Source of the DNA: an uncultured Ignavibacteria bacterium
GTDB taxonomy: Bacteria > Zixibacteria > MSB-5A5 > CAIYYT01
Direction of reading: 5' to 3'
DNA: 64,000 bases
Assembly (NCBI GenBank): GCA_964576925.1
Contig: CAZNWJ010000001.1
Span: forward strand, 91,915-155,914
Below are positions 20,984 to 39,860 of the stretch, piece after piece. Numbering within the stretch: the stretch's first letter is position 1; each line of letters begins with the position of its first letter. The position numbers and the translations under genes are program-made. Under the pieces are notes generated by a model. The model had not been told where the DNA came from, made no database searches, and was given only the letters and a program-made list of their open reading frames with translations.

Positions 20984-20989
20984 CAGAAA

Positions 20990-22882: not shown

Positions 22883-23787
22883 CGCGTGCCCTCGTGCTTC
22901 TTCGCCAGAAGTTCAGCGGCTTTGTCGCGATGGACTTTCTCCCAAGGTACCCGGATATTCAAAGCCCCGTAGACAAAGGCTGCGCACAGGACCAAGTAGA
23001 CCAGATACACCGGCCAGCGATTCCGGCAGACGTGCAGGACGAACCGCCAGTTGAACACAGAGAAGATTGTATTGCCCAGCGAGCTGAAAAAGTGCTTCAG
23101 AGCGCGCAGGATCGCAGACTCACCCTTGTAGATCTCGTTGGTGCGAAGGTACCAGGCGGCAAAATCATTATGTTCGGAAATGACGCGCAGTTCATCGGTT
23201 GGCGCAAAGGAACGAATCTCGTCCTTGCGGCCGCGCTGGTTGAGCGCCGCGATGTGCAGCATTTTCTTTTGCCAGGAGTCAGAGCGAACGATGCGCGTTG
23301 CCGAGACATTGATCTGGTCGCTTTCGCGGAAGTTGACGGCGATTTGTGCCGTGCGGTGAAGGATTAATGCGCGAAAGTCCCGATCACGCTTGGCGAAGCC
23401 TCGCAGTTTGCCGCCAAAGACGAGCGGAGCGATCGCTTGTTCGACAAACTGACTGTCGTCGACGATGCCGCGCAGTTTCTTGGCCGCCAGGAATGCATTC
23501 TGACATTGTTGCGGCGGGCGACGAACATACCAAAAGTACAACGCCAGGAGATTGGCAACGACCAAGCTGACGGGCTGCGAATTGCGCGGGATCGTGTTGA
23601 TTCGCTGCTTGAGGTGCTCGTCAACGCTGACACCGCCGTCAGCCGACAGATCGAGTCGATCAAGTTCGGCGAAGAAATTCTCGCAGTCGCGGATAAAGGT
23701 ATCCGCCGAGAAGTCCGTTTGCTGACGCTCGTAACGGTTGAGTTGGACAAAAATGGCGTTGGTAAGAGCTTTGAGTTTTTCCGACAT
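22879..23787 (-). CDS. Tail-anchored membrane protein (possible TssL/DotU analogue)
   Basis: 302 aa with a soluble N-terminal ~255 aa, one C-terminal TM (VYLVYLVLCAAFVYGALNI) and a short tail. Topology like TssL, but no sequence motif confirmed. Confidence 0.45.
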   Translation of the reverse strand: MSEKLKALTNAIFVQLNRYERQQTDFSADTFIRDCENFFAELDRLDLSADGGVSVDEHLKQRINTIPRNSQPVSLVVANLLALYFWYVRRPPQQCQNAFLAAKKLRGIVDDSQFVEQAIAPLVFGGKLRGFAKRDRDFRALILHRTAQIAVNFRESDQINVSATRIVRSDSWQKKMLHIAALNQRGRKDEIRSFAPTDELRVISEHNDFAAWYLRTNEIYKGESAILRALKHFFSSLGNTIFSVFNWRFVLHVCRNRWPVYLVYLVLCAAFVYGALNIRVPWEKVHRDKAAELLAKKHEGTR

Positions 23788-23793
23788 CCCTGT

Positions 23794-25266
23794 TTACCGC
23801 GCCCTCGAAAAGATCGAGACGTGATTCATCTTCACCGCTTCCAATGCGGAGCGATCAACATCTCCGTCAATGATAATATTCAGGCGATCGAGCCGCGAGC
23901 TTTTTAGCGGAAAGTACTCATTGGGCTGAATCAGCCAGAAATCGGGATCGCTGACATCCTCGACCGGTTTGCGGGCGACCGATGCTGCAGCGATGTCGTC
24001 GACCTCATTCGCGCCAAGGTAGATGATAACGTTGGCTGCGTACTGAATCGGCAGAACCTTCTTGTGCAACTTAACAATGACATCCTCGGTGCCGCGGGGA
24101 TCGACGCCGTCAATGACGATATGGTGGCGATTATTGCGGAAAGAATACTTGACCGCACCGTGTTGTTGCAGCAGGAAGCGGAAGCCATCGCGTTCGAGCG
24201 AATCACCTGTACGACCGGCCGCTCCCGACGCATAATAGCTTAAGATGGCGCCGACGAACTCAAGCATTCGTTCCGTGTCATTGAAGAACTGCGTCATCTC
24301 TTCGTACCCGTACGAGCGAGTCTGGTAGTCGCGTAACTCGGGCAGAATATTGCCGCCATTGAGCTCGCCTCGATCAGTCTTAATGTGGGCAGTGCGCACG
24401 TATTCGCGCAATTCCGGGTAGATGAGGAAACTCTGCTGGAAACCGCCGACAAAACCGCCAAAATAATTCATCAGGGCGCGGGCGCTGATTCCGCAATGAT
24501 GGTCGAAGATCTGATTGTAATTGAAGCCGAGGCTGTGGAGGAGATTCTCGGTCTGGAGGAAGACGCCACGAATGGTCTCTTCTTCGGCCGCCGCCGGCCG
24601 GCTCTTCACCTTCATCCTCACTTCGGCGATTGCCGCAACCCCGGCGCGTTGGATATTGTCCAATAGCTTGCGAATGTTAGCCATGCGCGAGGTAACTGCC
24701 TTGCCGCAACTCGTCGTCATGACGCTCGGGACAAACGACTCGTCAAGTCGTACATCGTCGCCCTCACGCACGATTTCAGCCACCTGAAGTCCCGCCGCCG
24801 AACCGACGGAATCGGACGCACCGGCACTTAGAAAGTAGCGGGGTACCTGATAGGGCAGGCGGCTTAAGAGTTCTCCCGGCAGTGGGTCGCCAAAGGCAGT
24901 GCGTTCGGTCGGGGAGGAATACAGAAAAATCGGAATTCTCTCACGCTTTTCCTTGGACAAGTCAAAGCTGAGCTCGACGGCCTTGAACTTGCTGTAAGCT
25001 TCATTGACGTTAACGATCGAGCCATTGGGAAGCAAGGCGGCGCACTTGAGTACCGTCACGCTAACGGTGTTGCCGCTGCGCTGAAGCTTGATCTCCAACG
25101 GTTCACTCTTGCTGCCGGCAGCTTTCACCAACCCGTAGCTGGTCGCGAGTGCGGACGCTGTCGCGCGGCTCAGGTTATAGGTGAAGTCAGCTTCCTGGCT
25201 GAAGTGACGGCTGGTAATCAGCATGCCGTCGACCCAATTAACACCCCAGACGTTTAAATCATCCAT
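23794..25266 (-). CDS. tssK: T6SS baseplate protein TssK-like
   Basis: N-terminus MDDLNVWGVNWVDGMLITSRHFSQ parallels the canonical TssK opening (V.W.EGM.L.PQHFQQ). 490 aa is the typical size. Immediately downstream of tssE-F-G. Confidence 0.6.
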   Translation of the reverse strand: MDDLNVWGVNWVDGMLITSRHFSQEADFTYNLSRATASALATSYGLVKAAGSKSEPLEIKLQRSGNTVSVTVLKCAALLPNGSIVNVNEAYSKFKAVELSFDLSKEKRERIPIFLYSSPTERTAFGDPLPGELLSRLPYQVPRYFLSAGASDSVGSAAGLQVAEIVREGDDVRLDESFVPSVMTTSCGKAVTSRMANIRKLLDNIQRAGVAAIAEVRMKVKSRPAAAEEETIRGVFLQTENLLHSLGFNYNQIFDHHCGISARALMNYFGGFVGGFQQSFLIYPELREYVRTAHIKTDRGELNGGNILPELRDYQTRSYGYEEMTQFFNDTERMLEFVGAILSYYASGAAGRTGDSLERDGFRFLLQQHGAVKYSFRNNRHHIVIDGVDPRGTEDVIVKLHKKVLPIQYAANVIIYLGANEVDDIAAASVARKPVEDVSDPDFWLIQPNEYFPLKSSRLDRLNIIIDGDVDRSALEAVKMNHVSIFSRAR

Positions 25267-25307
25267 GTATCAGACCCATACAGAAAATGTGAAAGCAATA
25301 TACCCCG

Positions 25308-26240
25308 CTAAAATGTCTCCCGCAAGTATGTTGAGAAACCGAGAAACGCGCTGTGCGAGTCATCGCCTATGACAAATATCGACAAACCGGGTTGAAATCG
25401 AAACCTAAGTTCGGAGCGCAAGTGTGAGGGCCGAAACAGCGTCAGCAAGTTGTTTGTGATCGTGCGCAAGCGCCCTTCGGGAGCAAATGAGGCAATATCG
25501 TCCTCGAAGAGGCCCTCGACGTTGACGCGAAAGGTTGAGAAGTTCTCTTCAAACTCCTGACCGGGAAAGAAGTCGCGTCCCAGCCGACTATTGAGCTTCC
25601 CCAGCCGGGGCCAGAAGTTATCGGGGATCGCTTCGTGCGCTGCGATGTTTTCTTCAACCGTAACGCGCTTGCCAAGGAACGCCGGCAAGACCTGCTCATA
25701 TAAGAGACGACGGCCGAGGAAGTACGGCGCAAAGAACCGCAGCAATAGCAGGTACTTGCGATCCTCCCGCGCCAGAGTCGGCAGGTCGCCCCCCAGGCTT
25801 TCCCAATAAAGCAATTCGGTATCGTTATCGTCGATGCAAAAAAGCATCCGTAGGCGAAGGAGGTAGTGGGCAATCCAATGGCGATAAGTGATCGTATCGA
25901 AGGCGCTCCAGAATTCGAGATAGCGATCCTCCCAGACTCCGGGGTGATGGTCCGATTCTTCCAGTTGCTCAACGAAGAACGACTGTGGAAAGTAGTTCTT
26001 AAAACACGGAAGGTAGGCGAAGACTACGCGCTCATCGCGTCGATCGACCCGAGACGTCACCGTGCGGATCGTCTCAATATCCGAGAAAAACCCGCCGTGG
26101 GCTTCAAGGCTTACGAACCAGAACTCGCTTGGCTCGATGCCCAGGGTATGAAGCAGCAAGCTGAATTCGGAGAGCCGGGTACGCTCGCGAATGCGATGCA
26201 CGGAAGTGATTTGCCCGGTCTTCATTGGCTCGCCGCCCAC
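25308..26240 (-). CDS. tssG: T6SS baseplate protein TssG-like
   Basis: 310 aa. Position and size after tssF, overlapping its 3' end. Weak N-terminal resemblance to TssG. Assignment mainly by synteny. Confidence 0.5.
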   Translation of the reverse strand: MGGEPMKTGQITSVHRIRERTRLSEFSLLLHTLGIEPSEFWFVSLEAHGGFFSDIETIRTVTSRVDRRDERVVFAYLPCFKNYFPQSFFVEQLEESDHHPGVWEDRYLEFWSAFDTITYRHWIAHYLLRLRMLFCIDDNDTELLYWESLGGDLPTLAREDRKYLLLLRFFAPYFLGRRLLYEQVLPAFLGKRVTVEENIAAHEAIPDNFWPRLGKLNSRLGRDFFPGQEFEENFSTFRVNVEGLFEDDIASFAPEGRLRTITNNLLTLFRPSHLRSELRFRFQPGLSIFVIGDDSHSAFLGFSTYLRETF

Positions 26241-27997
26241 TGCGCGTTCAGGTGGAGATTGAGTGGCGTGTAGCTGTCCAGGTATTGGCTAAGGCGCTGC
26301 AAGAGATACGTCTGCTCTTCTGCGGTTACCTTAGCATCGGCTCTGAGGGCGACTTCGACCGTTACGGAAGGCAAGAGCCCTCCGACCGATCGGATCACGC
26401 TACGCCTGGCTCTGGCGGTTGCGATGCGGCTGTCAAAGCTCCTCGCGAGGTACTCGATCTCGCCTTCGGAAAGGGCGACGCCATGATTACGCAGGAAGAA
26501 GCCGGTCATACGCCTGACTTCTTCATCCGACTTGGCATCCGAGCCGCCGGACGAACTGACGAGATTTCGGGGCGAGTGCAATTGCGGATGATCGCGGGTC
26601 AGTTTCAGCGGGGTGTCTGCCCCAATGCCGTTGCCGTCGGCTCCCTCGGTCAATGAATATTGGACGACTACGAAGTCGGGCGGCTCCTTCCCTGTGCTCT
26701 CGAAGTTAATCGCGACCTTGACTTCACCTTCTTCCTCGAGAATGTGGTACTTGTAGAGATTGGTGAACGACGTCAGGTCCAAGTGGTTCACATACTCCTG
26801 GTCCCTCGAGTCCCAGACCCGATCGATCGAAAACAATTTGCGTGTCGGATCTTCTTTCTGATCCTGATACTCAAAGAGATTCACTTCGAGAGCCGGCTGT
26901 CCCATCGTGTACTTGTTCAGATGAGACCGTCGCCGATTGATGAGAAGCAGCGTATTGGTGTCAAAGTGAATAAAGCGCCGGAGATCGCCGACTTTCTCAT
27001 CGCGTGCCAGGTCAATCCGCAGCCATATTCTTGGCGAAGCCAACTTGGAAAAATCGAGGTGCGCGAATTTGGTTTTGACAGGATCTGGAATCGGCGTTTT
27101 CACCGCACTGGCGAGGGCAGTTCCGGGAATGACGGCAAAGTTCTTGGCTGGTGCCAGGTAGTGTTTGAAATGCCAATGAAGCTTCCCGGAAGTCAGAAAA
27201 TCGCTGCTGTAGAGCCGACTTTGGAAATTGGTCTCGACTTCCAACTCACGGATATCCAGATGCTTGAAGATCTCGAGGCGATGTTGGTATTCACCTGGTT
27301 TGAAAGGCGCCGCCTGCCCATCTCCGACTACGCGCCAGTCAACCCAATTCAGCATCCGTGAGGAATCGGCGTCTGGTCCGAGATATAGCGGCAGATCGTC
27401 GATTTCTGTGAGAGGCAGCCCGGATTGGATTCCGATCCAAATCGTCCCTCCCAGCGGCGGCGGAGCGTTGCGTTTCATCGTACGATATGCAGGCGAATCG
27501 AGCGACTCTTCCCATTTGTCCGCTTCCGGGGCCAATACCTTCAACACACGAAAGTACTCGCCGGAGGTAAACAGCACGAGATCGGCGTGTACATCGAGGA
27601 TTTCCTGGGCGTAAAGCGGGAAGAAAGTATATTCGCGGGGGAAAGCTCCCCCCAGCGTACAAGCAAATTCAACATCGGTGTCGATTCGCGCCCGTTTGTC
27701 GGTGCAACGACAAGAGAGCATCGTAAAGGCGGGAACCGGGCGTCGAATGCCAGTGACGAAGAAGTTGCCGATCAGTGCGTCGATTACGTCCTGACCGGCC
27801 CGCTTGAGTTTGTCCTCCGTGCTGGTGCTGTGGAAGGCGAACGCCTTGAGCATCAGCAGCAGGGCCGGATCCATCTGCTTTTCGCCGGAAGGCACCTGAT
27901 AGCCCCAGAACTTGAGGCGATCGATCATTTCCTGATAAGCGCGCTCTTCGCGGTCGGTCCATTTTTCGGCCACGGTGCTTCCTCTCAAATCTCCCAC
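26222..27997 (-). CDS. tssF: T6SS baseplate protein TssF-like
   Basis: 591 aa. N-terminal LLLMLKAFAFHSTSTEDKL...LIGNFFVTGIRRPVPAFTMLS parallels the TssF LLEGFAFL...YLRPIPSM region. Overlaps tssE by 13 nt. Confidence 0.6.
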   Translation of the reverse strand: MGDLRGSTVAEKWTDREERAYQEMIDRLKFWGYQVPSGEKQMDPALLLMLKAFAFHSTSTEDKLKRAGQDVIDALIGNFFVTGIRRPVPAFTMLSCRCTDKRARIDTDVEFACTLGGAFPREYTFFPLYAQEILDVHADLVLFTSGEYFRVLKVLAPEADKWEESLDSPAYRTMKRNAPPPLGGTIWIGIQSGLPLTEIDDLPLYLGPDADSSRMLNWVDWRVVGDGQAAPFKPGEYQHRLEIFKHLDIRELEVETNFQSRLYSSDFLTSGKLHWHFKHYLAPAKNFAVIPGTALASAVKTPIPDPVKTKFAHLDFSKLASPRIWLRIDLARDEKVGDLRRFIHFDTNTLLLINRRRSHLNKYTMGQPALEVNLFEYQDQKEDPTRKLFSIDRVWDSRDQEYVNHLDLTSFTNLYKYHILEEEGEVKVAINFESTGKEPPDFVVVQYSLTEGADGNGIGADTPLKLTRDHPQLHSPRNLVSSSGGSDAKSDEEVRRMTGFFLRNHGVALSEGEIEYLARSFDSRIATARARRSVIRSVGGLLPSVTVEVALRADAKVTAEEQTYLLQRLSQYLDSYTPLNLHLNAQWAASQ

Positions 27998-28329
27998 GAC
28001 AAGTCAAATCGCTGATTACCGGGGCCGGTACCCGAAACCCGGCACACAAATGTGGCGGTCGGCGAAGAGACGTTATCGGAGATCGCTACGTTAACAACGA
28101 GGCCGAGATAGCGCCTAAACTGCGCCAGGACATGATTGCGCACCTCGACCTTTAAGTCATCATGATGTTCGGGGGTGAATAAAGAGGACCGACAGCCAAA
28201 TTCCGGATCGGGTCGATAGCTTCCCAATTCAGTTTCAAGCAAAAAACGCGCAAACTCGGCCACACCTCCGGTGCGGACGAAGCGCGTCTCCCTTAGTTCG
28301 ACTGGAGTTCGAATTGCCTCATTGGCCAT
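27985..28329 (-). CDS. tssE: T6SS baseplate TssE-like (gp25/GPW lysozyme-like)
   Basis: 114 aa, gp25-like size. Sits between vgrG and tssF as in many T6SS loci. Sequence resemblance modest. Confidence 0.55.
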   Translation of the reverse strand: MANEAIRTPVELRETRFVRTGGVAEFARFLLETELGSYRPDPEFGCRSSLFTPEHHDDLKVEVRNHVLAQFRRYLGLVVNVAISDNVSSPTATFVCRVSGTGPGNQRFDLSWEI

Positions 28330-28332
28330 GTG

Positions 28333-30195
28333 TTAGTTTAGTGCAATGGGCTTGCCCGATACTGTTACAGGTCCTTTGCCGGTGACGCCCACCATGGCGC
28401 CCTCGGCGTTGAATTGGCCATTGGCCTTCATGTTCATGTTGCCTTTAGCAGTGGCATCGACGCTCATGCCGTCAATCGTAATGCCCTGCGATGCTTTGAG
28501 CGTCGCATTTCCCGAGCTCGACTCAATGGAGACATCGTTTGTCGCCTTAACGGTGAAAGCCTTGCCGGCCTCCATGCTGATATTTTCCTTCGCCTTGAGC
28601 ACGATATCCTTATCGGCCATTATCGTAATTGTATTCTGACTGGAATCGATGACGATCGTGTTGGTGCCGGTTTTGTCGATAATCTCGATCTTCTCTTCTC
28701 CGGACTTCTCGCGGAAAATGATCTGGTGCCCACAACGCGTGTAGATCACCTTGTTGTCGTTATCAGGCGTGTAAATCCCAGTCGGCGGCAAGTCCTGTCC
28801 GTTCCACATTGAACCGATAACGACCGGCTGAGTGGGATCGCCATTCTCAAAAATCACGAGCACTTGATCGTCGATTTCAGGGATGAAATAGAAGCCGCGC
28901 TCTCGTCCGGCGTAAGGGGAAACGAAAGGCAGCCAGTGCGATTCCAGGGCGTTGCCGTCATTGTCAAGCAAAGGGAACTGCACCTTTATCCGCCCACGCG
29001 ATTCGGGATCCTCGATGTTAGTCACAAGGGCTGGCATCGGGTCGGCCCGCCTGACCCGCGATTCTGATGCCACGCGGCTGGGTACGGCCGCTTCGAGCGG
29101 CAGTACTTCGAGCTCGTTGTAATAACCGACGTTTCCTTCGATACGGTGCGTGACGCCGGTTACGAAATAGACGCCATTATATGCAGTGCCGGCTTCTTCC
29201 AGCTTGACCGTATCGCCAACCTTAATGCTCGGGACATTAGACTGGATAGTGCCTTCCAGAAGCCCGCTGACCGCTTCTTGGCCAAGCGATTGTGCCAACA
29301 ATTTCACTTCGTTGTGGTGGAAACCCGAATCGGCAGCAGAGTTTGACGTTAGTGAAGATAGATCTCGGGAACCGGCAAAGGCCCGCTGGGCCAGCCCGGA
29401 GAATGATGTTGACGAACTTTGTTGTCCAACAAAGACCTGCTTCTGCGCGTGGTCCCAACCGCGAACGGTGTGGTTGATTTGCTGTGCATTCAAACTAATG
29501 TTGATACTGCCAACACTCTTCCCCCAAACCAACGTTTTCTGATTCCGGGTAGCGGCGGTGGCAATCTGCAGCTTCTTACCGTCATAGTATAGCCAACTAC
29601 TGGTTACGCTGGCCAGCATCACCAGGAAATCCCAATCGGTTTCCTGCCATTGGATCATATACTCCGGCGCATACCCTGCATCACCGCTGAACGTCACGCC
29701 CGCTTTTTCTATACTGTATTCTCCCACGATCCGATCAACAACATCGCTACGGGACATATTCAAGAACGTGCGGAATTTTCTGACAAAGTCCATCTTGATG
29801 GTCGGGCTCTTGGCCTCGACAGTGACGGTGGCCAGAGTGTCACCGCGACTACTGATATGAAGATTGGTGACCAAGCCGGCGAATTCCAGCGGCGACTCTG
29901 AGATGGCGTAGTCTTCGGTCGGCTTGATGGCAACGTTAATCGACTTGCCGATCAAACCGTGATAGGAGTTCGTGGCATCCAACTGCGTCTTGAAGTCCGG
30001 TGACGTCAGGTCGGCTGTCAAGCTGACCTTGAGCACGTGATGCTCGAACGCTTCTTGCCTAAGTTCGAGCGAACTCACGACCCACGAGACCGGCGAACCA
30101 TCGATCTTGACTTCGACTGCAGCCGTAATTCGGGAAAGTGGTCCCTCATCTTCGCGTTCGTCATCTTCCGGAATATCTGCTTCGTGCAATGCCAT
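28333..30195 (-). CDS. vgrG: VgrG-like spike protein (gp27/gp5 fusion) with C-terminal beta-helical repeats
   Basis: QWQETDWDFLVMLAS (gpD-like motif). gp5 OB-fold signature IPEIDDQVLVIFENGDPTQPVVIGSMWNG. C-terminal repetitive TIVIDSSQNTITIMADKDIVLKAKENISMEAGKAFTVKATNDVSIE... beta-helix. No recognisable toxin domain. Confidence 0.8.
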   Translation of the reverse strand: MALHEADIPEDDEREDEGPLSRITAAVEVKIDGSPVSWVVSSLELRQEAFEHHVLKVSLTADLTSPDFKTQLDATNSYHGLIGKSINVAIKPTEDYAISESPLEFAGLVTNLHISSRGDTLATVTVEAKSPTIKMDFVRKFRTFLNMSRSDVVDRIVGEYSIEKAGVTFSGDAGYAPEYMIQWQETDWDFLVMLASVTSSWLYYDGKKLQIATAATRNQKTLVWGKSVGSINISLNAQQINHTVRGWDHAQKQVFVGQQSSSTSFSGLAQRAFAGSRDLSSLTSNSAADSGFHHNEVKLLAQSLGQEAVSGLLEGTIQSNVPSIKVGDTVKLEEAGTAYNGVYFVTGVTHRIEGNVGYYNELEVLPLEAAVPSRVASESRVRRADPMPALVTNIEDPESRGRIKVQFPLLDNDGNALESHWLPFVSPYAGRERGFYFIPEIDDQVLVIFENGDPTQPVVIGSMWNGQDLPPTGIYTPDNDNKVIYTRCGHQIIFREKSGEEKIEIIDKTGTNTIVIDSSQNTITIMADKDIVLKAKENISMEAGKAFTVKATNDVSIESSSGNATLKASQGITIDGMSVDATAKGNMNMKANGQFNAEGAMVGVTGKGPVTVSGKPIALN

Positions 30196-30284: not shown

Positions 30285-30698
30285 TTATTTGCCCTTCCAG
30301 TCCTTCTTGTACTCGGTGCCGTTGAGGTCCACCAGCTCCGCCGAGATTTCGAAGTACTCGTACATCTGCTCGTTCGGAGCCGATGCGGTCGAGGGAACGT
30401 GCTCTTCATAGTGGGTGATGAAACCGTTCTCCCACTTCAGAACCTTTAGATCCTTCTTGAGGTTCGGATCCTTAAAGGTGATCTGGCCGGCTTTGCGGTT
30501 GACCTGGGACGAATCGAACGCCCACTTGGCGATACCGACGTTTTCGTCCGATTCCCGGCTGATCTTGATCTTCAGACCGGTCGGCACCGAACTCGGCTTG
30601 CCGTCCGCGAGATCGTGGGGGGTGAAGAGTTCATAGCTCACCGAGTGAACCTTGTCGAACTTTTCGCCATCGACCAGCAGTTCTACTTCCTGTGCCAT
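30285..30698 (-). CDS. hcp: Hcp-like inner tube protein
   Basis: 137 aa, strong SD (GCAGGAGGAAATGAACAATG). Position between tssC and vgrG. C-terminal ...YKKDWKG recalls the Hcp C-terminal Trp. Shorter than canonical Hcp (~160 aa). Confidence 0.5.
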   Translation of the reverse strand: MAQEVELLVDGEKFDKVHSVSYELFTPHDLADGKPSSVPTGLKIKISRESDENVGIAKWAFDSSQVNRKAGQITFKDPNLKKDLKVLKWENGFITHYEEHVPSTASAPNEQMYEYFEISAELVDLNGTEYKKDWKGK

Positions 30699-30807: not shown

Positions 30808-32208
30808 TTATTTCACGGCCGTCTGGCCGGAGTCGTCCACCATGGCCTCCAGCTTCACGACGTACTGCTTGATCGGCGTTTTGGTATTCAAGGCGACTTC
30901 CAGCAACATCTGCTGGTTTTCGATCATCTCGTTCGTCGCGATCACGTTGCAGGTGAAGCCGTTAATGACCTTATTGCGCTGTAACAGGCTCAGGAACTTG
31001 TTCAGGTCCCCGTCGATCGACTTCTTCAGCTTGTCGTCGAAGCCCTTGTAAACCTGTTGATTGAGGTAATTACGCATGGTCTTGTAGATGTAGTCGTAAG
31101 TCCGCTTGATCGTGTAGTTGCGGAACTTGGCGTCCTTGGACAGCGTGTCCGCGCCCATGGCCACGACATCACCAACATCGCCCTGCCAATTGAGCACGCA
31201 GTTGATGCCCTTCTCGTTGAGCTTCGTGTTCTTGGCTTCGTTGAGCTTGATCCGGGTGCTTTGCACGCCGCCCAATTTGCCATTGACCTTGCCTGCCGAG
31301 GGCGCCTGGATGCCAATATCGTTGTCGTTCTTATAGATCAATCCGGCCACCAGGGATGACGGCGGAATCCAGAGCGGATCCTTGTCAAAGCGGCTTTCAG
31401 GCTTGTCGGCTTTGACGTAGTTGCCGAAGACCGAGATATATGCCTTGTACTCGTCGTTGGAGCGCAACGAATCGTAAGACGGATCGTCGAGTTCCTCAGA
31501 CAGCTCTTCGTAGCTGTTGAAGTGCTTGAAATCGGTGAGCACGTGGAGCTTGCTCGGCATCCCCATGTCGCGAGCGACGGTGTCGATATCCTTGACGCTT
31601 CCAAGATAGCCGGGAATGCAGCAGAGCGAGTAGCAGTTCGTGATGTCATAGAGGCCGTAGATGTCGTGCACCTGCCGATTGACATACTCGAACTTCTCGC
31701 GGTCATTCGGATCAGTAAGGTCGGCGATTCCGACATTCGCGAAATAAGCGTAAATCTCGGAATCGGGCCGCGCCATCGCGTTCTGGAAGAACAAATCGAT
31801 GCCGCGATACGCAACCTCGATCGGGCGCACCGTATCGTGGATGCTTTTCATGTTCTCGCCGAGGTTCTTGTCAGCCTCAGCGATCATGTTGTCGAGTTTG
31901 TCCTTGAATTCGTCGGACGTGACGTCTCCGGCCGAGATTAATTCCGACCAAACAGAGAGCCGCTGCCTGAGCTGCTTGCGGCGGTCCTTGAATTCATCCG
32001 AAGACAAGAACTTATTGAATGATTCATTCTTGGGATCCAGGAACTTGGCGCCTTCAACGTAGACGCCGTCCTGGCTGGTGAAGTGAGACAAGTGATCCTT
32101 GATCACCTCGTAGCCGACAAAACCGGCACCGAGGATATCTTTGAGATCAGTTTTCTCTTTGACTTTTACTTCAGCCTGTTGCTGTGGGTCTTTTTCCTGA
32201 TCAGCCAT
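30808..32208 (-). CDS. tssC: T6SS contractile sheath large subunit TssC-like
   Basis: 466 aa immediately after the tssB-like gene (18-nt gap). Size and placement typical of TssC/VipB. Confidence 0.65.
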   Translation of the reverse strand: MADQEKDPQQQAEVKVKEKTDLKDILGAGFVGYEVIKDHLSHFTSQDGVYVEGAKFLDPKNESFNKFLSSDEFKDRRKQLRQRLSVWSELISAGDVTSDEFKDKLDNMIAEADKNLGENMKSIHDTVRPIEVAYRGIDLFFQNAMARPDSEIYAYFANVGIADLTDPNDREKFEYVNRQVHDIYGLYDITNCYSLCCIPGYLGSVKDIDTVARDMGMPSKLHVLTDFKHFNSYEELSEELDDPSYDSLRSNDEYKAYISVFGNYVKADKPESRFDKDPLWIPPSSLVAGLIYKNDNDIGIQAPSAGKVNGKLGGVQSTRIKLNEAKNTKLNEKGINCVLNWQGDVGDVVAMGADTLSKDAKFRNYTIKRTYDYIYKTMRNYLNQQVYKGFDDKLKKSIDGDLNKFLSLLQRNKVINGFTCNVIATNEMIENQQMLLEVALNTKTPIKQYVVKLEAMVDDSGQTAVK

Positions 32209-32226: not shown

Positions 32227-32682
32227 TTACAGTTTCTCGATATAGGACTTAATGACATTCAAGAACTCTTCTTTCTTGGCCGGATTTGACAATTCCTTTT
32301 TCAGCTTGGAATTGGGCTTGTCCAGCAGGTTCTTGAAGTTGCGCAGGATTTCGACCTCGTTGTACTTTTCCCAGAGGTATTGGTTCTTCTTGATGATTTC
32401 CATCGAACCGAAATCCTTCATTGAATTGAACTCCAGCTCGACCGACTCTTCGGACCCGTCCTGCTTATTGATCGTGACTTCCTGGGTCGGCCGAAACGTT
32501 GCGAACACTTCTTTGAGGTTTTTGCAGCGGGTCAACTCGGGTTCGGTCTCTTCGCGCGAGTTCAGCTTGGTCAGATAGACCATTTTGTTCGACGGCAAGA
32601 GATCGACGGGAATCGAATCGCTTTTCTCCTTGTACTCGGTGGTACCGATGTGGGGGGCGGCAATTCGGAACTGGTCTGCCAT
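32227..32682 (-). CDS. tssB: T6SS contractile sheath small subunit TssB-like
   Basis: 151 aa. NLKEVFATFRPTQEVTINKQDGSEESVELEFNSMKDFGSMEIIKK parallels the VipA/TssB segment (..DEVFEH..P...L.V..DGS..V.L.F.SMDDF.P). Confidence 0.65.
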   Translation of the reverse strand: MADQFRIAAPHIGTTEYKEKSDSIPVDLLPSNKMVYLTKLNSREETEPELTRCKNLKEVFATFRPTQEVTINKQDGSEESVELEFNSMKDFGSMEIIKKNQYLWEKYNEVEILRNFKNLLDKPNSKLKKELSNPAKKEEFLNVIKSYIEKL

Positions 32683-32703: not shown

Positions 32704-33837
32704 CTATAACTTGACGATTTCAAAGTTGTCGCCATTAAGGCGGACTTCGACGCGCGAGCCTTCCGGGAAGCGCCCGTCGATGATGCCGATGGAAAGCGGG
32801 TTGAGAATTTCCTTTTCGATAACCCGCTGCAGCGGCCGCGCGCCCATTTCAAAGTTGTAACCGCGTTCGGCCAGGGCCTTCATAGCTTCCGCCGTACACG
32901 AGATCGTCATCTTTTGATCTTTGAGGATCTTGTTGATGACTTTGAGCTGAATATTGACGATGGCGTTGATGCCTTTCTCCGTTAGCGGCCGGAAGATGAT
33001 CCATTCCAGGCGGTTGAGAAACTCCGGCCGGAACTTCGCTTTCAGAATCTTCATCATCTCGTCGCGATCGACCGGCTGGTTCTCGCGATAGCAATCCAGG
33101 ATGTAGTGCGAACCGAAATTGGAAGTCAGGATCACGATCGTATTCGTAAAATCGATGGTATTGCCCTGACCGTCGGTCAAGCGACCGTCGTCCAGTAGTT
33201 GCAGCATGATGTTGAAGACATCGGCATCGGCCTTTTCGACTTCGTCGAAGAGCACGACGGAATAGGGATTGCGTTTGACTTTCTCGGTCAACAAACCGCC
33301 CGCTTCATAGCCGACATACCCAGGTGGAGCACCAATCAGCTTGGCAACGGAGTGTTTCTCCATGTACTCTGACATATCGAAGCGGATCATGTTCTTTTCG
33401 TCGTTGAAAAGAAACTCGGCAAGAGTTTTGGCCAATTCCGTCTTACCTGTGCCCGTAGACCCCAGGAACAGGAAGGAGCCGATCGGCCGGTTGTGCCGCT
33501 TGATGCCGGAACGGGAACGGCGCACGGCTTCGCAGATCGTCTTAATCGCGTCCTCCTGGTCGATAACTCGTTTGCCGAGGTGATCTTCCAGGTTGAGAAG
33601 TTTAGCTTTTTCATCCTCCATCATGCGCGACACCGGGATCTTGGTCCAGCGGGAGATGACGTAGGCGACATCTTCCGTGCCAAGAGTCTGTTTCTCAGCG
33701 GTCACGAACTTTTCCAAACGATCGATCTTTTCGAGGTTTTCGCGAAATCGCGTGATCTGGCTCTTGTCTTCGCTCATTCTGCTTTCCGTTAATACCGCTT
33801 GGCGGTCTCGCAAACTGTCCGTGTTTTGGATCGACAT
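32704..33837 (-). CDS. ClpV/ClpB-family AAA+ ATPase, C-terminal fragment (M-domain remainder + D2)
   Basis: D2 Walker A GSTGTGKTELAK, sensor/arginine region, ...VISRWTKIPVSRMMEDEKAKLLNLEDHLGKRVIDQEDAI. Lacks Clp_N and D1, which are encoded by the adjacent upstream ORF in a different frame. Confidence 0.8.
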   Translation of the reverse strand: MSIQNTDSLRDRQAVLTESRMSEDKSQITRFRENLEKIDRLEKFVTAEKQTLGTEDVAYVISRWTKIPVSRMMEDEKAKLLNLEDHLGKRVIDQEDAIKTICEAVRRSRSGIKRHNRPIGSFLFLGSTGTGKTELAKTLAEFLFNDEKNMIRFDMSEYMEKHSVAKLIGAPPGYVGYEAGGLLTEKVKRNPYSVVLFDEVEKADADVFNIMLQLLDDGRLTDGQGNTIDFTNTIVILTSNFGSHYILDCYRENQPVDRDEMMKILKAKFRPEFLNRLEWIIFRPLTEKGINAIVNIQLKVINKILKDQKMTISCTAEAMKALAERGYNFEMGARPLQRVIEKEILNPLSIGIIDGRFPEGSRVEVRLNGDNFEIVKL

Positions 33838-33878
33838 GGTAGCCGACCCGATTTTTACACTCTACTCAAACCCAAGGT

Positions 33879-35294
33879 TCAAACGCGGCCCACCCAAAGG
33901 GAAAAAGTCTCTTCGAATCTGTCGTTAAACTCGCTCAGTCGCTTCTGCACATCTTCCGGAATAGCACTGTCATCCGTCGCGGCTGATTGCGCCCCCAACT
34001 TACCCTTGATTTCCTCCGCCAGCTTTCGCAGTTCCGGAATCTCGTTCTTCGCGCGCGTGCAATTGAGGCGAAACGAGGCCGCGGCTTCGTCGAGCAGGTC
34101 GATCGCCTTATCCGGTAGGAAGCGGTCGCCGATGTAACGCTGAGACAAGCGAATTGCCTCGTCAACGACGCCATCCGGGATATCGAGATTGTGATGCTTG
34201 CCGTAGGTGTCGCGTACGCCGGAAAGGATCTCCTGTGCTTCATTGAACGTCGGCTCTTCGACCATGACGCGCTGGAAGCGCCGGTCGAGCGCTTTGTCCT
34301 TTTCGATATACTTCCTGTACTCTTCTAGAGTCGTCGCCCCAATGACCTTGAATGTTCCGCGGGCCAGAGCTGGTTTGATCAAGTTAGCAGCATCCATGCC
34401 ACCCGAAGGGTTGCCGGCGCCGACCAAGGTGTGGACCTCGTCGATATAGAGAATCAGGTTGCCTTTGCCCTTGGACAGGCGTGAGATAAGCGCATTGAAG
34501 CGCTCCTCGAATTCGCCTTTGTACTTGGCCCCTGCTACCAGCTGTCCCAGATCAAGCTGCAGGAGCACCGAATCCCAAAGCTCCGGGGTGGTCTGCTTGT
34601 TAATTATCTGCAAAGCCAGGCCTTCGACAAGAGCCGACTTGCCCACCCCCGGAGGGCCGACCAGAATCGGATTGTTCTTACGACGTCGGATCAAGACGCG
34701 CGAGATGTTATAGATGTCTTCCTTGCGGCCGAAGAAATTGTCGTATTCGCCGCGGCGGGCACGCTCGCACATATCGACGCAGTACTTGATGCCTTCGGCG
34801 CCGGCGACAGCCTCTTCGCCATCGGTGACTGTTTGACCGCCGGCAATCGACTGGACAACTTTCATCTCCGCATTGGCATCGATGATCTTGCCCTCGTCGA
34901 AGTCGAGGCGGCGGCGAATCTGCTCTGACAAAGGAGAGTCCGGTGAAACCAACACCATCAAGATGTGCTCGGGGCGCACCTCGGAGTCCGAGTATTTCTC
35001 CGCCTTGTTGCCTGCTGCGACCAACAGCGATTGCAGGGCAGGTGACGCGGAGGGGCGGACTTCATCGGCAGCAGACTTACCGAATTTGGAAAGCTCGTCG
35101 GCAAGAAGCGCCTCAAAGTACTCGGGTTTCTTGCCGAGTTGCTTGAGAATTGCCGCCAGTTCTCCCTCTTCGTCGCGCAGCAAGGTGAGAAAGAGGTGCT
35201 GCGGGCGAATCTCCGAATGAAAATAGCTTTTAGCCAGTTCCTGCGAACGCCGAATGGCATTTTGCAGGGTCGTCGAGAACGATCCTAAATCCAT
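33879..35294 (-). CDS. ClpV/ClpB-family AAA+ ATPase, N-terminal fragment (Clp_N + D1 + start of M-domain)
   Basis: Clp_N repeats (IRPQHLFLTLL...), D1 Walker A ILVGPPGVGKSALVEG, Walker B LILYIDEVH. Ends within coiled-coil ...EFNDRFEETFSLWVGRV, 41 nt before the ATG of the C-terminal fragment. Confidence 0.8.
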   Translation of the reverse strand: MDLGSFSTTLQNAIRRSQELAKSYFHSEIRPQHLFLTLLRDEEGELAAILKQLGKKPEYFEALLADELSKFGKSAADEVRPSASPALQSLLVAAGNKAEKYSDSEVRPEHILMVLVSPDSPLSEQIRRRLDFDEGKIIDANAEMKVVQSIAGGQTVTDGEEAVAGAEGIKYCVDMCERARRGEYDNFFGRKEDIYNISRVLIRRRKNNPILVGPPGVGKSALVEGLALQIINKQTTPELWDSVLLQLDLGQLVAGAKYKGEFEERFNALISRLSKGKGNLILYIDEVHTLVGAGNPSGGMDAANLIKPALARGTFKVIGATTLEEYRKYIEKDKALDRRFQRVMVEEPTFNEAQEILSGVRDTYGKHHNLDIPDGVVDEAIRLSQRYIGDRFLPDKAIDLLDEAAASFRLNCTRAKNEIPELRKLAEEIKGKLGAQSAATDDSAIPEDVQKRLSEFNDRFEETFSLWVGRV

Positions 35295-35506: not shown

Positions 35507-36541
35507 TTAGCCGCCGAACAGGCGATCAATAAAAGTTTTTTTACGCTTCCGCTCAACTTGAAATGTGCCGGCGCGAAGAAAATCAGCAATGGGCCGCGTC
35601 CGATCTTCGTAGCCGGCATCGCCGAGATAGCTTGTGAGCTTGTCTTCGACGTCCGTGGCGCTGGCTGGCCGCTTTTCCGGGTCGAACGCTACGCAGCCGC
35701 GGAGAATCTGACCGAAGTCCTTGAGCAGCGAACGCGCCAGCGGGTCGCGATATTCCGGATAGAGCGCCTCTATACGGAAAGGGCGGTTTTCCCGAACGTT
35801 TTGCCGAGCTTCGAAAATTGTCTGTCCCTGATATGGGTGGCACGCTGTCGCAGCCTCCAGCATGATCAGCCCCAACGCATAGACGTCAGAGCGGCGATCG
35901 GCGTAGCCCGCTTTCAGCAGTTGTTCCGGTGATTCATAAGTTTGCGGAAGATATGGCAACTCAAGCTGCCGCCGGTCAGCAAAGGCTCTTAGCTGATTCG
36001 TGTCACAATCGGCAAGTAGGACCCGGCCATCCGGCGTCAAGAGGATATTCTCCGGACTCAGATTCCGGTGCAGAGGGATCAGGTTTCCGAGGCCGGGAGA
36101 GGGGCGGAGCCCGTGAATCTGCAGCAGGGCCGTTACGGCTCCCAGTGCGATGAGAGCGACCAGGTCGGGGTGAAGCGGCGCAAAGCGCTCGATCACGACG
36201 CGCAGGCTCGTTGCCTCGATATATTCGAACTCGAAAAAGCGAATTCCGGCGTGCTGTCCGGCGGCGTAATAGCGCAGGAGACGATCGCCGCGGAACTCCT
36301 GAAGAAGTCGCGACAGGCGGTCGAAGGTCTCGCCGATTTCAGGGTGCTGCGACAGGCGGCGCCGGAGCACCTTCAGACGCACCGCAGAATTGTCGGAGAG
36401 GCGCCGCGCCCGGAAGCAGTATGTCGTCGGTCCCTCGCCGATCGGATTCTTGTCGATCGCGTAGTTTTGAAACCGCTCCGGCAGGTCGGGATGGTCGAGG
36501 GCGGCAAAGTGAGCGTAGCGTGCTTTATTATGGGTCGACAT
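35507..36541 (-). CDS. Ser/Thr protein kinase-like protein with degenerate catalytic loop (PpkA-like, probable pseudokinase)
   Basis: Kinase fold motifs: Gly loop IGEGPTTY, VRLKVL (Lys), HRNLSPENILL in place of HRDLKPEN, DCD in place of DFG, SPE for APE. Confidence 0.7.
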   Translation of the reverse strand: MSTHNKARYAHFAALDHPDLPERFQNYAIDKNPIGEGPTTYCFRARRLSDNSAVRLKVLRRRLSQHPEIGETFDRLSRLLQEFRGDRLLRYYAAGQHAGIRFFEFEYIEATSLRVVIERFAPLHPDLVALIALGAVTALLQIHGLRPSPGLGNLIPLHRNLSPENILLTPDGRVLLADCDTNQLRAFADRRQLELPYLPQTYESPEQLLKAGYADRRSDVYALGLIMLEAATACHPYQGQTIFEARQNVRENRPFRIEALYPEYRDPLARSLLKDFGQILRGCVAFDPEKRPASATDVEDKLTSYLGDAGYEDRTRPIADFLRAGTFQVERKRKKTFIDRLFGG

Positions 36542-39287: not shown

Positions 39288-39860
39288 CTATTGCAGCTCG
39301 AATGTGTCTACTTCCATCATTGAGCCTTTCCATCCCAGGTAATTTCGACAACTTGACCACGGCCACTCCTCGGCACTTGTCACCAATCCGCGTTTCACTG
39401 GATTTTTGTGGCAGTGCTCGATCCGGCTGCGAACCGCATTGACACTGCGGCAATTGTGATCAAAACACCGCCGTTCCCAAAAAGCGTTGCGCTCAATCCC
39501 ATTTCGTAGGACACGAAATTCTTTCAGCATCTCCGGATCGACCGATCGCAGGGCGCGCAAGGCGGCGTGCGCCGAACGATTCTTGGCGAGTCCGATCACC
39601 GGACCCAATTCGACTTCGACAGGAGGGACGACTACGAGATGGACGTGTTCAGGCATGATGACGTAAGCGAGAAGTCTCAGGTTATTTCGAAGACGAATTT
39701 CTCTGATCGAGTCGATGACGAACAGCTTCAGTGCATCGTAGCGGAGTGCTGGAATATCTCGATGCGTAACGAAAGTAATGAATCGAGCGCGCCCGTCATG
39801 ATCGAAGTGGCGAAGGTTCATGGATGCAACAAATGAGTAGGAAGCTGCGAGGGCAATCAC
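39288..39860 (-). CDS. REP-associated tyrosine transposase (RAYT, IS200/IS605 Y1 HUH family)
   Basis: HUH motif YVIMPEHVHLVVVP. WERRCFDHN (W.RRFWDH-like). Catalytic Tyr region CHKNPVKRGLV. Real start probably MNLRHFDHDGRARFITFVT (39821). Confidence 0.75.
   Translation of the reverse strand: MIALAASYSFVASMNLRHFDHDGRARFITFVTHRDIPALRYDALKLFVIDSIREIRLRNNLRLLAYVIMPEHVHLVVVPPVEVELGPVIGLAKNRSAHAALRALRSVDPEMLKEFRVLRNGIERNAFWERRCFDHNCRSVNAVRSRIEHCHKNPVKRGLVTSAEEWPWSSCRNYLGWKGSMMEVDTFELQ

What the first reader, a model, noticed from the sequence alone, without database searches (positions are those of the whole stretch)
32704..35294. ClpV recycling ATPase encoded as two ORFs split inside the M-domain coiled coil
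The N-terminal ORF (Clp_N + D1, ends ...FEETFSLWVGRV*) and the C-terminal ORF (starts MSIQNTDSL..., remainder of M-domain + D2) are 41 nt apart and in different frames. Together they span about 848 aa, the length of an intact ClpV, so nothing is deleted. In the downstream ORF's frame a TAG lies 9 codons upstream of its ATG, and the upstream ORF's TGA precedes it. A single ribosomal or sequencing frameshift therefore cannot join them. Either a genuinely two-chain ClpV, a recent pseudogenisation (T6SS still able to fire once but not recycle), or an assembly error.
Basis: seen in the sequence. Interest (0 to 1): 0.6.

Follow-up and report, generated by a model that had tools for sequence, protein, structure and literature searches.

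The report
Conserved two-gene T6SS ClpV ATPase
The ATPase that recycles the sheath of a type VI secretion system is encoded here as two separate genes, and this split is old and kept by selection in a whole lineage of Zixibacteria-like bacteria, so it is not a broken gene or an assembly error.

Summary
On the minus strand a 471-aa ORF (Clp_N + AAA D1 + first M-domain hairpin) is followed, after stop codons in every frame, by an ORF encoding the rest of the M-domain plus AAA D2.

The split is not a pseudogene or an assembly error:
- The best 120 protein clusters matching the N-half are all 447-540 aa. 117 of them stop 1-14 residues after one conserved W-x-x-R motif.
- Besides the window, 11 independent loci with enough flank (40-99% identity) have a separate D2 gene next, then tssB-tssC-hcp.
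- Silent sites are saturated (pS 0.7-0.8) while pN is 0.05-0.16 in both halves.
- All ATPase motifs are invariant.
- In the distant groups the D2 ATG overlaps the upstream stop behind a strong Shine-Dalgarno sequence.
- Stop codon type, spacer length and frame all vary, which rules out recoding.

The break aligns to about residues 466-476 of E. coli ClpB, in mid helix L2 at the motif 1/motif 2 boundary.

Bacteroidota T6SSiii loci carry one fused 812-849-aa ClpV.

I infer, without having shown it, that the two chains assemble into a two-ring unfoldase. This is a new variant of a known kind.

The parts
33879..35294 (-). tssH-N: first chain of the split ClpV-like ATPase, 471 aa. It holds the Clp_N domain, AAA+ D1 with its lid, and the first M-domain hairpin, and ends LWVGRV followed by TGA.
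   Evidence: ORF and translation. Pfam Clp_N, AAA and AAA_lid_9. 120 stand-alone homologues of 447-540 aa. Walker A, Walker B, pore loop and Arg fingers are invariant. pN 0.10-0.16 against pS 0.71-0.80.
33778..33878 (-). Intergenic spacer of 101 nt. It has stop codons in all three frames and holds a non-conserved upstream ATG at 33837-33835 that extends the ORF by 20 codons.
   Evidence: Frames. In relatives the spacer is 37-64 nt and is not alignable. The extension evolves as non-coding sequence against L167. No Rfam match and no significant RNA fold.
32704..33777 (-). tssH-C: second chain, 357 aa from ATG 33777 (the longest possible ORF starts at 33837, 377 aa). It holds one M-domain helix, the segment EDVAYVISRWTKIPV, then AAA+ D2 and the D2-small domain.
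   Evidence: Pfam AAA_2 and ClpB_D2-small. Homologues are 357 aa. Conserved start. pN 0.055-0.115 against pS 0.71-0.78. D2 Walker A, Walker B, pore loop GAPPGYVGY and sensor-2 GARP are invariant.
32227..32682 (-). TssB (small sheath subunit)
   Evidence: Pfam T6SS_VipA. The position is conserved in the related split loci with enough flank.
30808..32208 (-). TssC (large sheath subunit) of the PF17541 type, the presumed substrate of the ATPase
   Evidence: Pfam TssC PF17541. Synteny. 24-29% identical to Bacteroidota T6SSiii TssC (annotated DUF5458).
30285..30698 (-). Hcp / TssD tube protein (PF17642 type)
28333..30195 (-). VgrG spike
   Evidence: Phage_GPD and Phage_base_V:
23794..28329 (-). Baseplate genes: TssE-like (27985-28329), TssF-like (26222-27997), TssG (25308-26240) and TssK (23794-25266)
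   Evidence: Pfam TssG and a weak VasE match. The TssE-like and TssF-like ORFs are named by position only. The gene in the same place in L003 hits GPW_gp25. Conserved by tblastn in relatives.
35507..36541 (-). Ser/Thr protein kinase directly upstream of tssH-N, a possible regulator
   Evidence: Pfam Pkinase. Conserved upstream in L001 and L005 at 54-58% identity. Absent in L002 and in group B.

Best explanation
This is a naturally split, two-gene version of the T6SS sheath-recycling AAA+ ATPase (the functional equivalent of TssH/ClpV).

**Composition of the two chains**
- Chain 1 (471 aa) carries the N-domain, the D1 ATPase ring module and the first hairpin of the middle domain.
- Chain 2 (357 aa) carries the remaining middle-domain helix, the short segment that follows the middle domain, and the D2 ATPase ring module.

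**How it most likely works**
- The gene was cut once, in the common ancestor of a Zixibacteria-related lineage, in the middle of the long M-domain helix at the motif 1/motif 2 boundary.
- It has been kept as two genes ever since. The two are co-transcribed at the head of the tssB-tssC-hcp-vgrG operon.
- In the distant subgroups they are translationally coupled.
- I infer that the two products associate non-covalently into a two-tier (6+6) ring. This ring would thread TssC of contracted sheaths exactly as a single-chain ClpV does.

**Shown here**
- The split itself.
- Its conservation, and purifying selection on both halves.
- Intact catalytic motifs in both halves.
- The conserved gene context.
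- The position of the break in the fold.

**Inferred, not shown**
- Physical assembly of the two chains.
- 1:1 stoichiometry.
- Sheath disassembly as the function.
For: **1. Conservation of the break**
- All 120 best clusters matching the N-half are 447-540 aa. 117 end 1-14 residues after an invariant W-x-x-R; 2 are cut by contig ends and 1 reads through.
- Close C-half homologues are stand-alone proteins of 340-383 aa.
- Several N/C pairs share the same contig.
- PGAP annotates MBK7091252.1 and MBK7091253.1 as two intact proteins.

**2. Loci with DNA**
- Besides the window, 11 loci have enough flank: L167, L001, L002, L005, L085, L003, L006, L086, L088, L165 and L166. All have N-gene, D2-gene, then tssB-tssC-hcp, followed by vgrG and baseplate genes as far as the flank reaches.
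- L089 also has both halves, but its contig ends before tssB.
- The 150 or so other loci fetched are fused ~870-aa ClpBs with no T6SS genes nearby.

**3. Selection**
- pN is 0.05-0.16 against a saturated pS of 0.70-0.80 for both ORFs.
- Against L167, 92-94% of differences are at third positions, with only 4 and 1 amino-acid changes.

**4. Catalytic motifs**
- D1 and D2 Walker A and B, both pore loops, the Arg fingers and sensor 2 are invariant across groups A and B.

**5. Expression signals**
- In groups B and C the D2 ATG overlaps the N-gene stop (offsets -1, -4 or -8) behind GGAGG- or AGGAG-like sites.
- Stop codon type (TGA, TAA, TAG), spacer length (-8 to +101) and relative frame all vary, so no recoding signal is conserved.

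**6. Position in the fold**
- The concatenated profile aligns to E. coli ClpB 6-855 in one stretch. The invariant Trp (W467) aligns with the Trp of the ClpB segment 'EEEWK'. The break falls at about ClpB 466-476.
- In the AF2 model of the concatenation (pLDDT 82), the junction is a loop of pLDDT below 50 between helices 447-464 and 478-496.
- The best fold matches are ClpC and ClpB.

**7. Precedent for function in trans**
[quoted passage not shown] That paper cites Beinker et al. [quoted passage not shown]

**8. Single origin**
- The split family is monophyletic in a crude NJ tree.
Against: - No experimental or proteomic evidence exists for either product or for a complex.
- The AF2 model is a forced single chain, so it cannot demonstrate assembly in trans. 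I could not inspect its contacts. The low confidence at the junction may partly reflect alignment rows that end there.
- By sequence the pair is not a curated ClpV. Even the virtual fusion scores 699 bits against a ClpV1 cut-off of 885, and 894 bits against a ClpB cut-off of 1232.
- The N-domain resembles ClpC and ClpB N-domains more than the solved ClpV1 N-domain, 4HH5, which scores only E = 0.003. How the sheath is recognised is therefore unknown.
- One fused variant exists inside group B (P0100), so the split state is not absolutely required.
- In group A the two genes are separated by 37-101 nt with weak Shine-Dalgarno sequences, so equal expression is not guaranteed.
Confidence: 0.78

Rival explanations
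1. The two halves have become functionally independent. For example, D2 could act alone as a single-ring unfoldase, as NBD2-only disaggregases do, while N-D1 acts separately as a sheath-binding adaptor or regulator and forms no stable joint ring with D2.
For: - Isolated ClpB NBD1-M is itself an oligomerising, active ATPase (PMC4239642).
- Skd3 (human ClpB) is reported as a potent disaggregase (PMC7343390, title and abstract seen). That it has a single D2-like NBD is from my own knowledge.
- In group A the genes are uncoupled by 37-101 nt.
- The spacer is more conserved than silent sites, which hints at separate regulation.
Against: - The two genes are strictly adjacent and co-oriented in every locus with enough flank.
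- In groups B and C the start overlaps the stop, which argues for 1:1 co-expression.
- The tail of chain 1 (F...W..R) and the head helix of chain 2 are conserved although they lie outside the ATPase cores.
- A read-through fusion occurs within the family.
Confidence: 0.14
2. Recoding: a programmed frameshift, stop read-through or ribosomal hop joins the two ORFs into one ~830-aa chain.
For: - The two ORFs are collinear pieces of one ancestral protein.
- One fused variant exists.
Against: - The window has stops in all three frames between the ORFs.
- Across loci the stop codon is TGA, TAA or TAG. The distance is -8, -4, -1, 37, 38, 40, 64 or 101 nt, and the relative frame differs.
- The spacers are not alignable.
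- The D2 genes have their own ATG, and in groups B and C their own strong Shine-Dalgarno sequence.
- Pfam finds no intein (Hint) domain in either ORF, and the chain-1 tail after W-x-x-R is only 1-14 residues.
Confidence: 0.02
3. Recent pseudogenisation of a once intact clpV, leaving a T6SS that fires but cannot recycle.
For: - Sporadic broken Hsp100 genes do exist: L078 and L161 in my own sample.
- A stop-codon-split clpV is described in Xanthomonas phaseoli pv. manihotis (PMC7788950).
Against: - The same break point is shared by lineages only 40% identical.
- Silent sites are saturated while both halves stay under strong constraint.
- The catalytic motifs are invariant.
- The sporadic broken genes are broken at other positions, with overlapping frames.
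Confidence: 0.02
4. Assembly or sequencing error in this window.
For: None specific. It is the generic worry for a single sequence.
Against: - An independent assembly (L167, GCA_964633215.1) that is 87% identical at the DNA level has the same two ORFs with the same 41/101-nt spacer.
- Ten further independent loci show the same arrangement.
- One N-half sequence was seen on 26 contigs from NCBI, ENA and Logan.
Confidence: 0.01

Closest known systems
Canonical ClpV/TssH of T6SS, both proteobacterial T6SSi (TIGR03345) and the fused ClpV of Bacteroidota T6SSiii
   Same: - Class-1 Hsp100 domain order: N-domain, D1, a short M-domain, then D2.
- No ClpP-docking IGF/IGL-type loop is seen in the D2 sequence (read by eye from the translation).
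- Encoded next to tssB and tssC.
- M-domain length equals that of Bacteroidota ClpV.
- The T6SS genes are of the PF17541 and PF17642 type, as in Bacteroidota.
   Different: - Encoded as two genes, whereas the Bacteroidota loci checked have one gene of 812-849 aa.
- Only 28-38% identical to those ClpVs, and it forms its own clade.
- Below the ClpV1 HMM cut-off.
- The N-domain is not ClpV1-like by sequence.
ClpB disaggregase, including Francisella ClpB, which serves its T6SS
   Same: - Best sequence and fold matches.
- 41-43% identity.
- ClpB is involved in Francisella T6SS disassembly (PMC7182274, abstract seen).
   Different: - About 30 residues of M-domain motif 2, the Hsp70-binding part (PMC4428496), are missing.
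- The gene is split.
- It is dedicated to a T6SS operon rather than being a lone housekeeping gene.
- It scores below the ClpB cut-off.
Engineered split ClpB of Thermus thermophilus (NBD1-M plus NBD2; Beinker et al. 2005, cited in PMC4239642)
   Same: The two AAA+ rings are on separate polypeptides. [quoted passage not shown]
   Different: - That is a laboratory construct, cut after the M-domain.
- Here the cut is natural, lies inside the M-domain, and has been kept by selection in a whole lineage.
clpV split by a stop codon in Xanthomonas phaseoli pv. manihotis (PMC7788950)
   Same: clpV is divided between the two AAA domains. The authors suggest that the two fragments may interact.
   Different: - That is a shallow, within-pathovar nonsense mutation in a T6SSi, with no evidence of a dedicated second start or of long-term selection.
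- Here the split is deep (40% identity) and has its own start codons.

Membership tests
Class-1 Clp/Hsp100 AAA+ unfoldases (ClpA/B/C/V) | Clp_N domain followed by two AAA+ modules (D1 of the PF00004 + AAA_lid_9 type, D2 of the AAA_2 + ClpB_D2-small type) | tested here: met
   Pfam on the two ORFs. The concatenated profile aligns with ClpB 6-855 at E = 1e-264. Foldseek top hits are ClpC and ClpB. The modules lie on two polypeptides.
Class-1 Clp/Hsp100 AAA+ unfoldases (ClpA/B/C/V) | Intact Walker A and B, pore-loop Tyr, Arg fingers and sensor 2 in both rings | tested here: met
   These columns are invariant in the alignment of 10 split pairs.
Class-1 Clp/Hsp100 AAA+ unfoldases (ClpA/B/C/V) | Single polypeptide carrying both rings | tested here: not met
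   Two ORFs with stops in all frames between them. This is conserved in 117 clusters.
TssH/ClpV (T6SS ATPase) | Scores above the curated TIGR03345 VI_ClpV1 cut-off | tested here: not met
   372 and 334 bits for the halves and 699 bits for the virtual fusion, against a cut-off of 885.
TssH/ClpV (T6SS ATPase) | Encoded within a T6SS core gene cluster next to the sheath genes | tested here: met
   The window and all 11 related split loci with enough flank.
TssH/ClpV (T6SS ATPase) | N-domain binds the TssC N-terminus, and the hexamer disassembles contracted sheath | not testable with these tools
   By sequence the N-domain is closer to ClpC and ClpB than to the solved ClpV1 N-domain, 4HH5 (E = 0.003). 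A binding or disassembly assay is needed.
ClpB disaggregase | Scores above the curated TIGR03346 cut-off, and has a full-length M-domain with motif 2 (the Hsp70 site) | tested here: not met
   894 bits against a cut-off of 1232. The M-domain is about 30 residues shorter than in ClpB in the motif 2 region.
T6SS subtype iii (Bacteroidota type) | TssC of the PF17541/DUF5458 type and Hcp of the PF17642 type | tested here: met
   tblastn to Bacteroidota T6SSiii TssC gives 24-29% identity.
T6SS subtype iii (Bacteroidota type) | TssN/O/P/Q/R membrane complex instead of TssJ/L/M (PMC10781749) | not tested
   No Pfam match for the unassigned ORF 22879-23787. I did not search for TssN-R homologues.

The most novel reading that the evidence does not exclude
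The split is adaptive rather than merely tolerated. Putting the D1 ring and the D2 ring on separate chains would let the cell assemble the recycling motor on demand. For example, N-D1 could dock on contracted sheath and only then recruit the D2 motor, or the ratio of the two rings could be tuned through the conserved spacer and the adjacent Ser/Thr kinase. That would be a mode of T6SS regulation, and of inter-ring communication in Hsp100 machines, not seen in single-chain ClpV or ClpB.
Probability: 0.15. Interest if true: 0.7.

Novelty: new variant of a known kind. Interest (0 to 1): 0.45.

Why it matters
**Why it would matter if true**
- Double-ring Hsp100 machines (ClpA, ClpB, ClpC, ClpV, Hsp104) are taken to be single chains in which D1 and D2 communicate through a covalent connection.
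- That the link is dispensable has so far rested on a laboratory construct of ClpB.
- Here nature appears to have run the same experiment and kept the result across a deep lineage.
- The cut lies at a defined structural hinge of the middle domain, in a dedicated T6SS ATPase.
- This gives a ready-made system for studying ring-ring coupling and assembly.

**Practical consequences**
- Annotation pipelines and T6SS detectors that expect one ~850-aa TssH will score these loci as lacking ClpV, or as carrying a pseudogene.
- The finding also extends the description of T6SSiii-like systems to Zixibacteria-related bacteria.

Tried and rejected
- **Exact-sequence look-ups.** Neither window ORF was on record.
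- **Mixed alignments.** MAFFT alignments of the concatenation with both N-type and C-type stand-alone proteins always misplaced one set, putting D1 onto D2. The alignment that worked used N-type proteins plus partial fused ClpBs.
- **Search for T6SSiii loci in viral contigs with a TssC profile.** Nothing found.
- **RNA element in the spacer.** No Rfam match, fold z-score -0.4, and spacers not alignable between relatives.
- **Promoter and terminator scan.** Counts were at the shuffle expectation.
- **Literature searches.** I searched for split ClpV, TssH, ClpB and naturally split Hsp100. The only hit was the Xanthomonas stop-codon case.
- **P0241.** This is a 477-aa representative from the 50%-cluster search. 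By its tail it is a frameshifted ClpC-type fragment, not a member of the family.
- **Recoding, intein splicing, pseudogene and assembly error.** All considered and rejected, for the reasons given under the rival explanations.
- **Rooting of the tree.** With only three clans and no outgroup, the NJ tree cannot say whether the split family is sister to ClpB or to Bacteroidota ClpV.
Full report
**1. Observation**

The feature lies on the minus strand.
- ORF 33879..35294 (471 aa) ends ...FEETFSLWVGRV followed by TGA.
- ORF 32704..33837 (377 aa) starts MSIQNTDSL.
- The two are 41 nt apart and in different frames. Stop codons in all three frames lie between them, including the TAG nine codons upstream of the second ATG.
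- Pfam assigns Clp_N, AAA and AAA_lid_9 to the first ORF, and AAA_2 and ClpB_D2-small to the second.
- NCBIfam aligns the first ORF to positions 2-430 of the ClpB model and the second to positions 507-851.

**2. Surroundings**

The two ORFs head a minus-strand T6SS operon:
- TssB (32227-32682)
- TssC of the PF17541 type (30808-32208)
- Hcp of the PF17642 type (30285-30698)
- VgrG (28333-30195)
- a TssE-like and a TssF-like ORF
- TssG and TssK

A Ser/Thr kinase lies directly upstream (35507-36541). The rest of the window is ordinary chromosome, including IleRS, an Mrp-type ATPase, a MiaB-like enzyme and an ECF sigma factor.

**3. The split is conserved**

*Protein level*
- I searched the N-half against 5.8 billion proteins. 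The best 120 clusters, from 99% down to 40% identity, are all 447-540 aa.
- 117 of them end 1-14 residues after a conserved W-x-x-R motif. Two are cut by contig ends. One (P0100) reads through.
- The close homologues of the C-half are stand-alone proteins of 340-383 aa, most of them 357 aa.
- Several N/C pairs sit on the same contig. PGAP annotated MBK7091252.1 and MBK7091253.1 as two intact neighbouring proteins.

*DNA level*
- Besides the window, I examined 12 loci that carry the N gene followed by a separate D2 gene.
- Group A (78-99% identical in the N-half): L167, L001, L005, L002 and L085.
- Group B (40-43%): L003 (a complete Zixibacteria genome, CP070674.1), L006, L086, L088 and L089.
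- Group C (43%): L165 and L166.
- In the 11 with enough flank, tssB-tssC-hcp follow the D2 gene, and then vgrG and baseplate genes as far as the flank reaches. L089 ends before tssB.
- About 150 other loci fetched with the same query are fused ~870-aa ClpBs of Bacteroidota, Acidobacteriota and others, with no T6SS genes beside them.
- Two of those (L078, L161) are sporadically frameshifted, but at other positions and with overlapping frames. That is what an artefact or a fresh pseudogene looks like.

**4. Selection**

- Between the window and group A relatives, the proportion of synonymous differences is saturated (pS 0.70-0.80). The non-synonymous proportion is 0.10-0.16 in the N gene and 0.055-0.115 in the D2 gene.
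- Against the closest relative, L167, the N gene has 183 nucleotide differences. 168 are at third codon positions and only 4 change an amino acid.
- The D2 gene has 109 differences against L167. 103 are at third positions and 1 changes an amino acid.
- The following are invariant across groups A and B: Walker A and B of both rings, the D1 pore loop AGAKYKGEFEERF, the D2 pore loop GAPPGYVGY, the Arg fingers, and sensor-2 GARP.

This excludes recent pseudogenisation. Together with the many independent assemblies, it also excludes an assembly error.

**5. Start of the second gene**

- In relatives the D2 protein starts at the equivalent of ATG 33777 (MSxEKSQI...). In L001 a stop lies two codons upstream of that ATG.
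- In the window and L167, an upstream ATG extends the ORF by 20 codons.
- That stretch differs at 9 of 60 nt, spread 3/3/3 over codon positions, and 7 of 20 residues change. It behaves as non-coding sequence.
- The spacer is therefore most likely 101 nt and the product 357 aa.

**6. Expression signals and recoding**

- In groups B and C the D2 ATG overlaps the N-gene stop, at offsets of -4 (ATGA), -8 or -1. It is preceded by GGAGG-, AGGAG- or GGGG-type sites. This is the classic arrangement for translational coupling.
- In group A the genes are 37-101 nt apart, the Shine-Dalgarno sequences are weak, and the spacers cannot be aligned.
- Stop codon identity, distance and relative frame all vary. 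A conserved frameshift, read-through or hop is therefore excluded.
- Pfam finds no intein domain in either ORF.

**7. Where the break lies in the fold**

- A profile of ten concatenated pairs aligns with E. coli ClpB residues 6-855 in a single collinear stretch, at E = 1e-264.
- The family's invariant Trp (W467 in the window) aligns with the Trp in the ClpB segment 'EEEWK'. The chain break then corresponds to about ClpB 466-476.
- From my knowledge of the ClpB structure (Lee et al. [quoted passage not shown]
- Motif 2 is the Hsp70-binding part of the M-domain (PMC4428496).
- Compared with ClpB, about 30 residues of motif 2 are absent. The M-domain is the same length as in fused Bacteroidota T6SSiii ClpVs.

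*AlphaFold2 model*
- I modelled the concatenation with an alignment of N-type proteins plus partial fused ClpBs. The mean pLDDT is 82.
- The model has a long helix at 395-438, a helix at 447-464, a loop at 469-475 with pLDDT below 50 exactly at the junction, a helix at 478-496, and then the segment EDVAYVISRW as a helix at 505-516.
- The best fold matches are ClpC and ClpB.

*Caveats on the model*
- The model is a forced single chain, and I could not inspect its contacts.
- The low confidence at the junction may partly reflect alignment rows that end there.

*Inference from ClpA/ClpB structures (knowledge, not tested here)*
- The M-domain is an insertion in the D1 small subdomain. The segment that follows it would then return to complete that subdomain.
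- If that holds here, chain 2 supplies a piece of chain 1's D1 lid. Together with contacts between the conserved tail and the head helix, this would tether the two chains.

**8. Mechanism**

- The best-supported reading is a two-chain TssH. Chain 1 supplies the N-domain and the D1 ring, and chain 2 supplies the D2 ring. They would assemble non-covalently into a two-tier hexamer that unfolds TssC of contracted sheaths.
- There is a laboratory precedent. T. thermophilus ClpB NBD1-M and NBD2 can be produced separately, and the original paper reports chaperone activity without covalent linkage (Beinker et al. 2005, cited in PMC4239642).
- Assembly, stoichiometry and substrate are inferred, not shown.

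**9. Comparison with what is known**

- By HMM cut-offs the pair is neither a ClpV1 nor a ClpB, even as a virtual fusion: 699 bits against 885, and 894 bits against 1232.
- Its N-domain is closer to ClpC and ClpB N-domains than to the solved ClpV1 N-domain.
- Bacteroidota T6SSiii loci on plasmids (Hymenobacter, Bacteroides finegoldii, Capnocytophaga) each carry one fused ClpV of 812-849 aa, in the same locus as the sheath genes.
- In a crude NJ tree the split family is monophyletic and separate from both ClpB and those ClpVs. Identity is 41-43% to ClpB and 28-38% to the ClpVs. A single fission event is the most parsimonious reading. The tree has no outgroup, so the sister group is undetermined.
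- P0100 (L168) is an in-frame fused variant on a 1.7-kb contig. It is 72% identical to split group B members, and so nested within them. It is either a secondary re-fusion or an error. Either way, it shows how easily the overlapping arrangement could re-fuse, and yet more than 100 clusters keep the split.

*Literature*
- In the held library I found no description of a conserved two-gene ClpV.
- The nearest case is a stop codon dividing clpV in Xanthomonas phaseoli pv. manihotis. The authors speculate that the fragments interact (PMC7788950).

**10. Taxonomy**

- NCBI names for relatives vary: 'Candidatus Zixiibacteriota', 'candidate division Zixibacteria', 'uncultured Ignavibacteria bacterium', 'FCB group bacterium' and 'bacterium'.
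- The window therefore comes from a Zixibacteria-related member of the FCB group. The exact placement was not determined.

**11. Verdict**

The 'two-chain ClpV' reading is supported, and the pseudogene and assembly-error readings are refuted.
- This is a new variant of a known kind of machine: a naturally split double-ring Hsp100 dedicated to a T6SSiii-like system.
- It is moderately interesting. Gene fission is common, and function of ClpB halves in trans is known in vitro.
- However, a deep, selected natural split at a defined hinge of ClpV appears to be undescribed. It also matters for T6SS annotation.

Noticed in passing
window 33778-33878: The 101-nt spacer between the two tssH genes differs at only 13 of 101 nt between the window and L167. 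Third codon positions of the flanking genes differ at 36% and 29%. The spacer is therefore more conserved than silent sites. It has no Rfam match, no significant fold, and no similarity to the spacers of more distant relatives. This is unexplained.
   Followed up: partly
window 20174-22882 (minus strand): A Double-GTPase-2 protein (20990-22882) and a GAP1-N2 protein (20174-20983) sit at the distal end of the T6SS operon, after an unassigned 302-aa ORF (22879-23787). I do not know whether they belong to the T6SS.
   Followed up: no
window 35507-36541 (minus strand); L001 8764-9786; L005 4762-5793: A Ser/Thr protein kinase lies immediately upstream of tssH-N. It is conserved there in two group A relatives (54-58% identity) but not in L002 or in group B. 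It may be a T6SS regulator.
   Followed up: partly
L168 134-1756 (P0100, GCA_977970965.1): An in-frame fused version of the two halves (...YWGHRLDREFKSSLPYEKIKPEN...) on a 1.7-kb contig. It is 72% identical to split group B members. The last ~25 nt of the contig diverge from the family and end in a stop. It is either a secondary re-fusion or an error.
   Followed up: partly
L078 5998-8629; L161 2835-4776: Two otherwise ordinary ClpB genes (L078 from a Bacteroidetes MAG, L161 from an unnamed metagenome contig) are broken by frameshifts at other positions, with overlapping frames. They look like sporadic errors or pseudogenes and make a useful contrast to the conserved split.
   Followed up: no
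L002 13021-14959: In this 822-kb contig, TssC and Hcp are called as several short pieces (167 + 241 aa, and 61 + 87 aa). This suggests indel errors in that assembly. The tssH-N and tssH-C boundaries are nevertheless the same as in relatives.
   Followed up: no
window 39288-39860 (minus strand): An IS200-like Y1 transposase ORF lies a few kb upstream of the T6SS cluster.
   Followed up: no
L169, L172, L173 (Bacteroidota plasmids): Complete or near-complete T6SSiii clusters with TssN, TssO and TssR and a fused ClpV are carried on plasmids of Hymenobacter volaticus, Bacteroides finegoldii and Capnocytophaga sp. In PGAP their TssC is annotated only as 'DUF5458 family protein'.
   Followed up: partly
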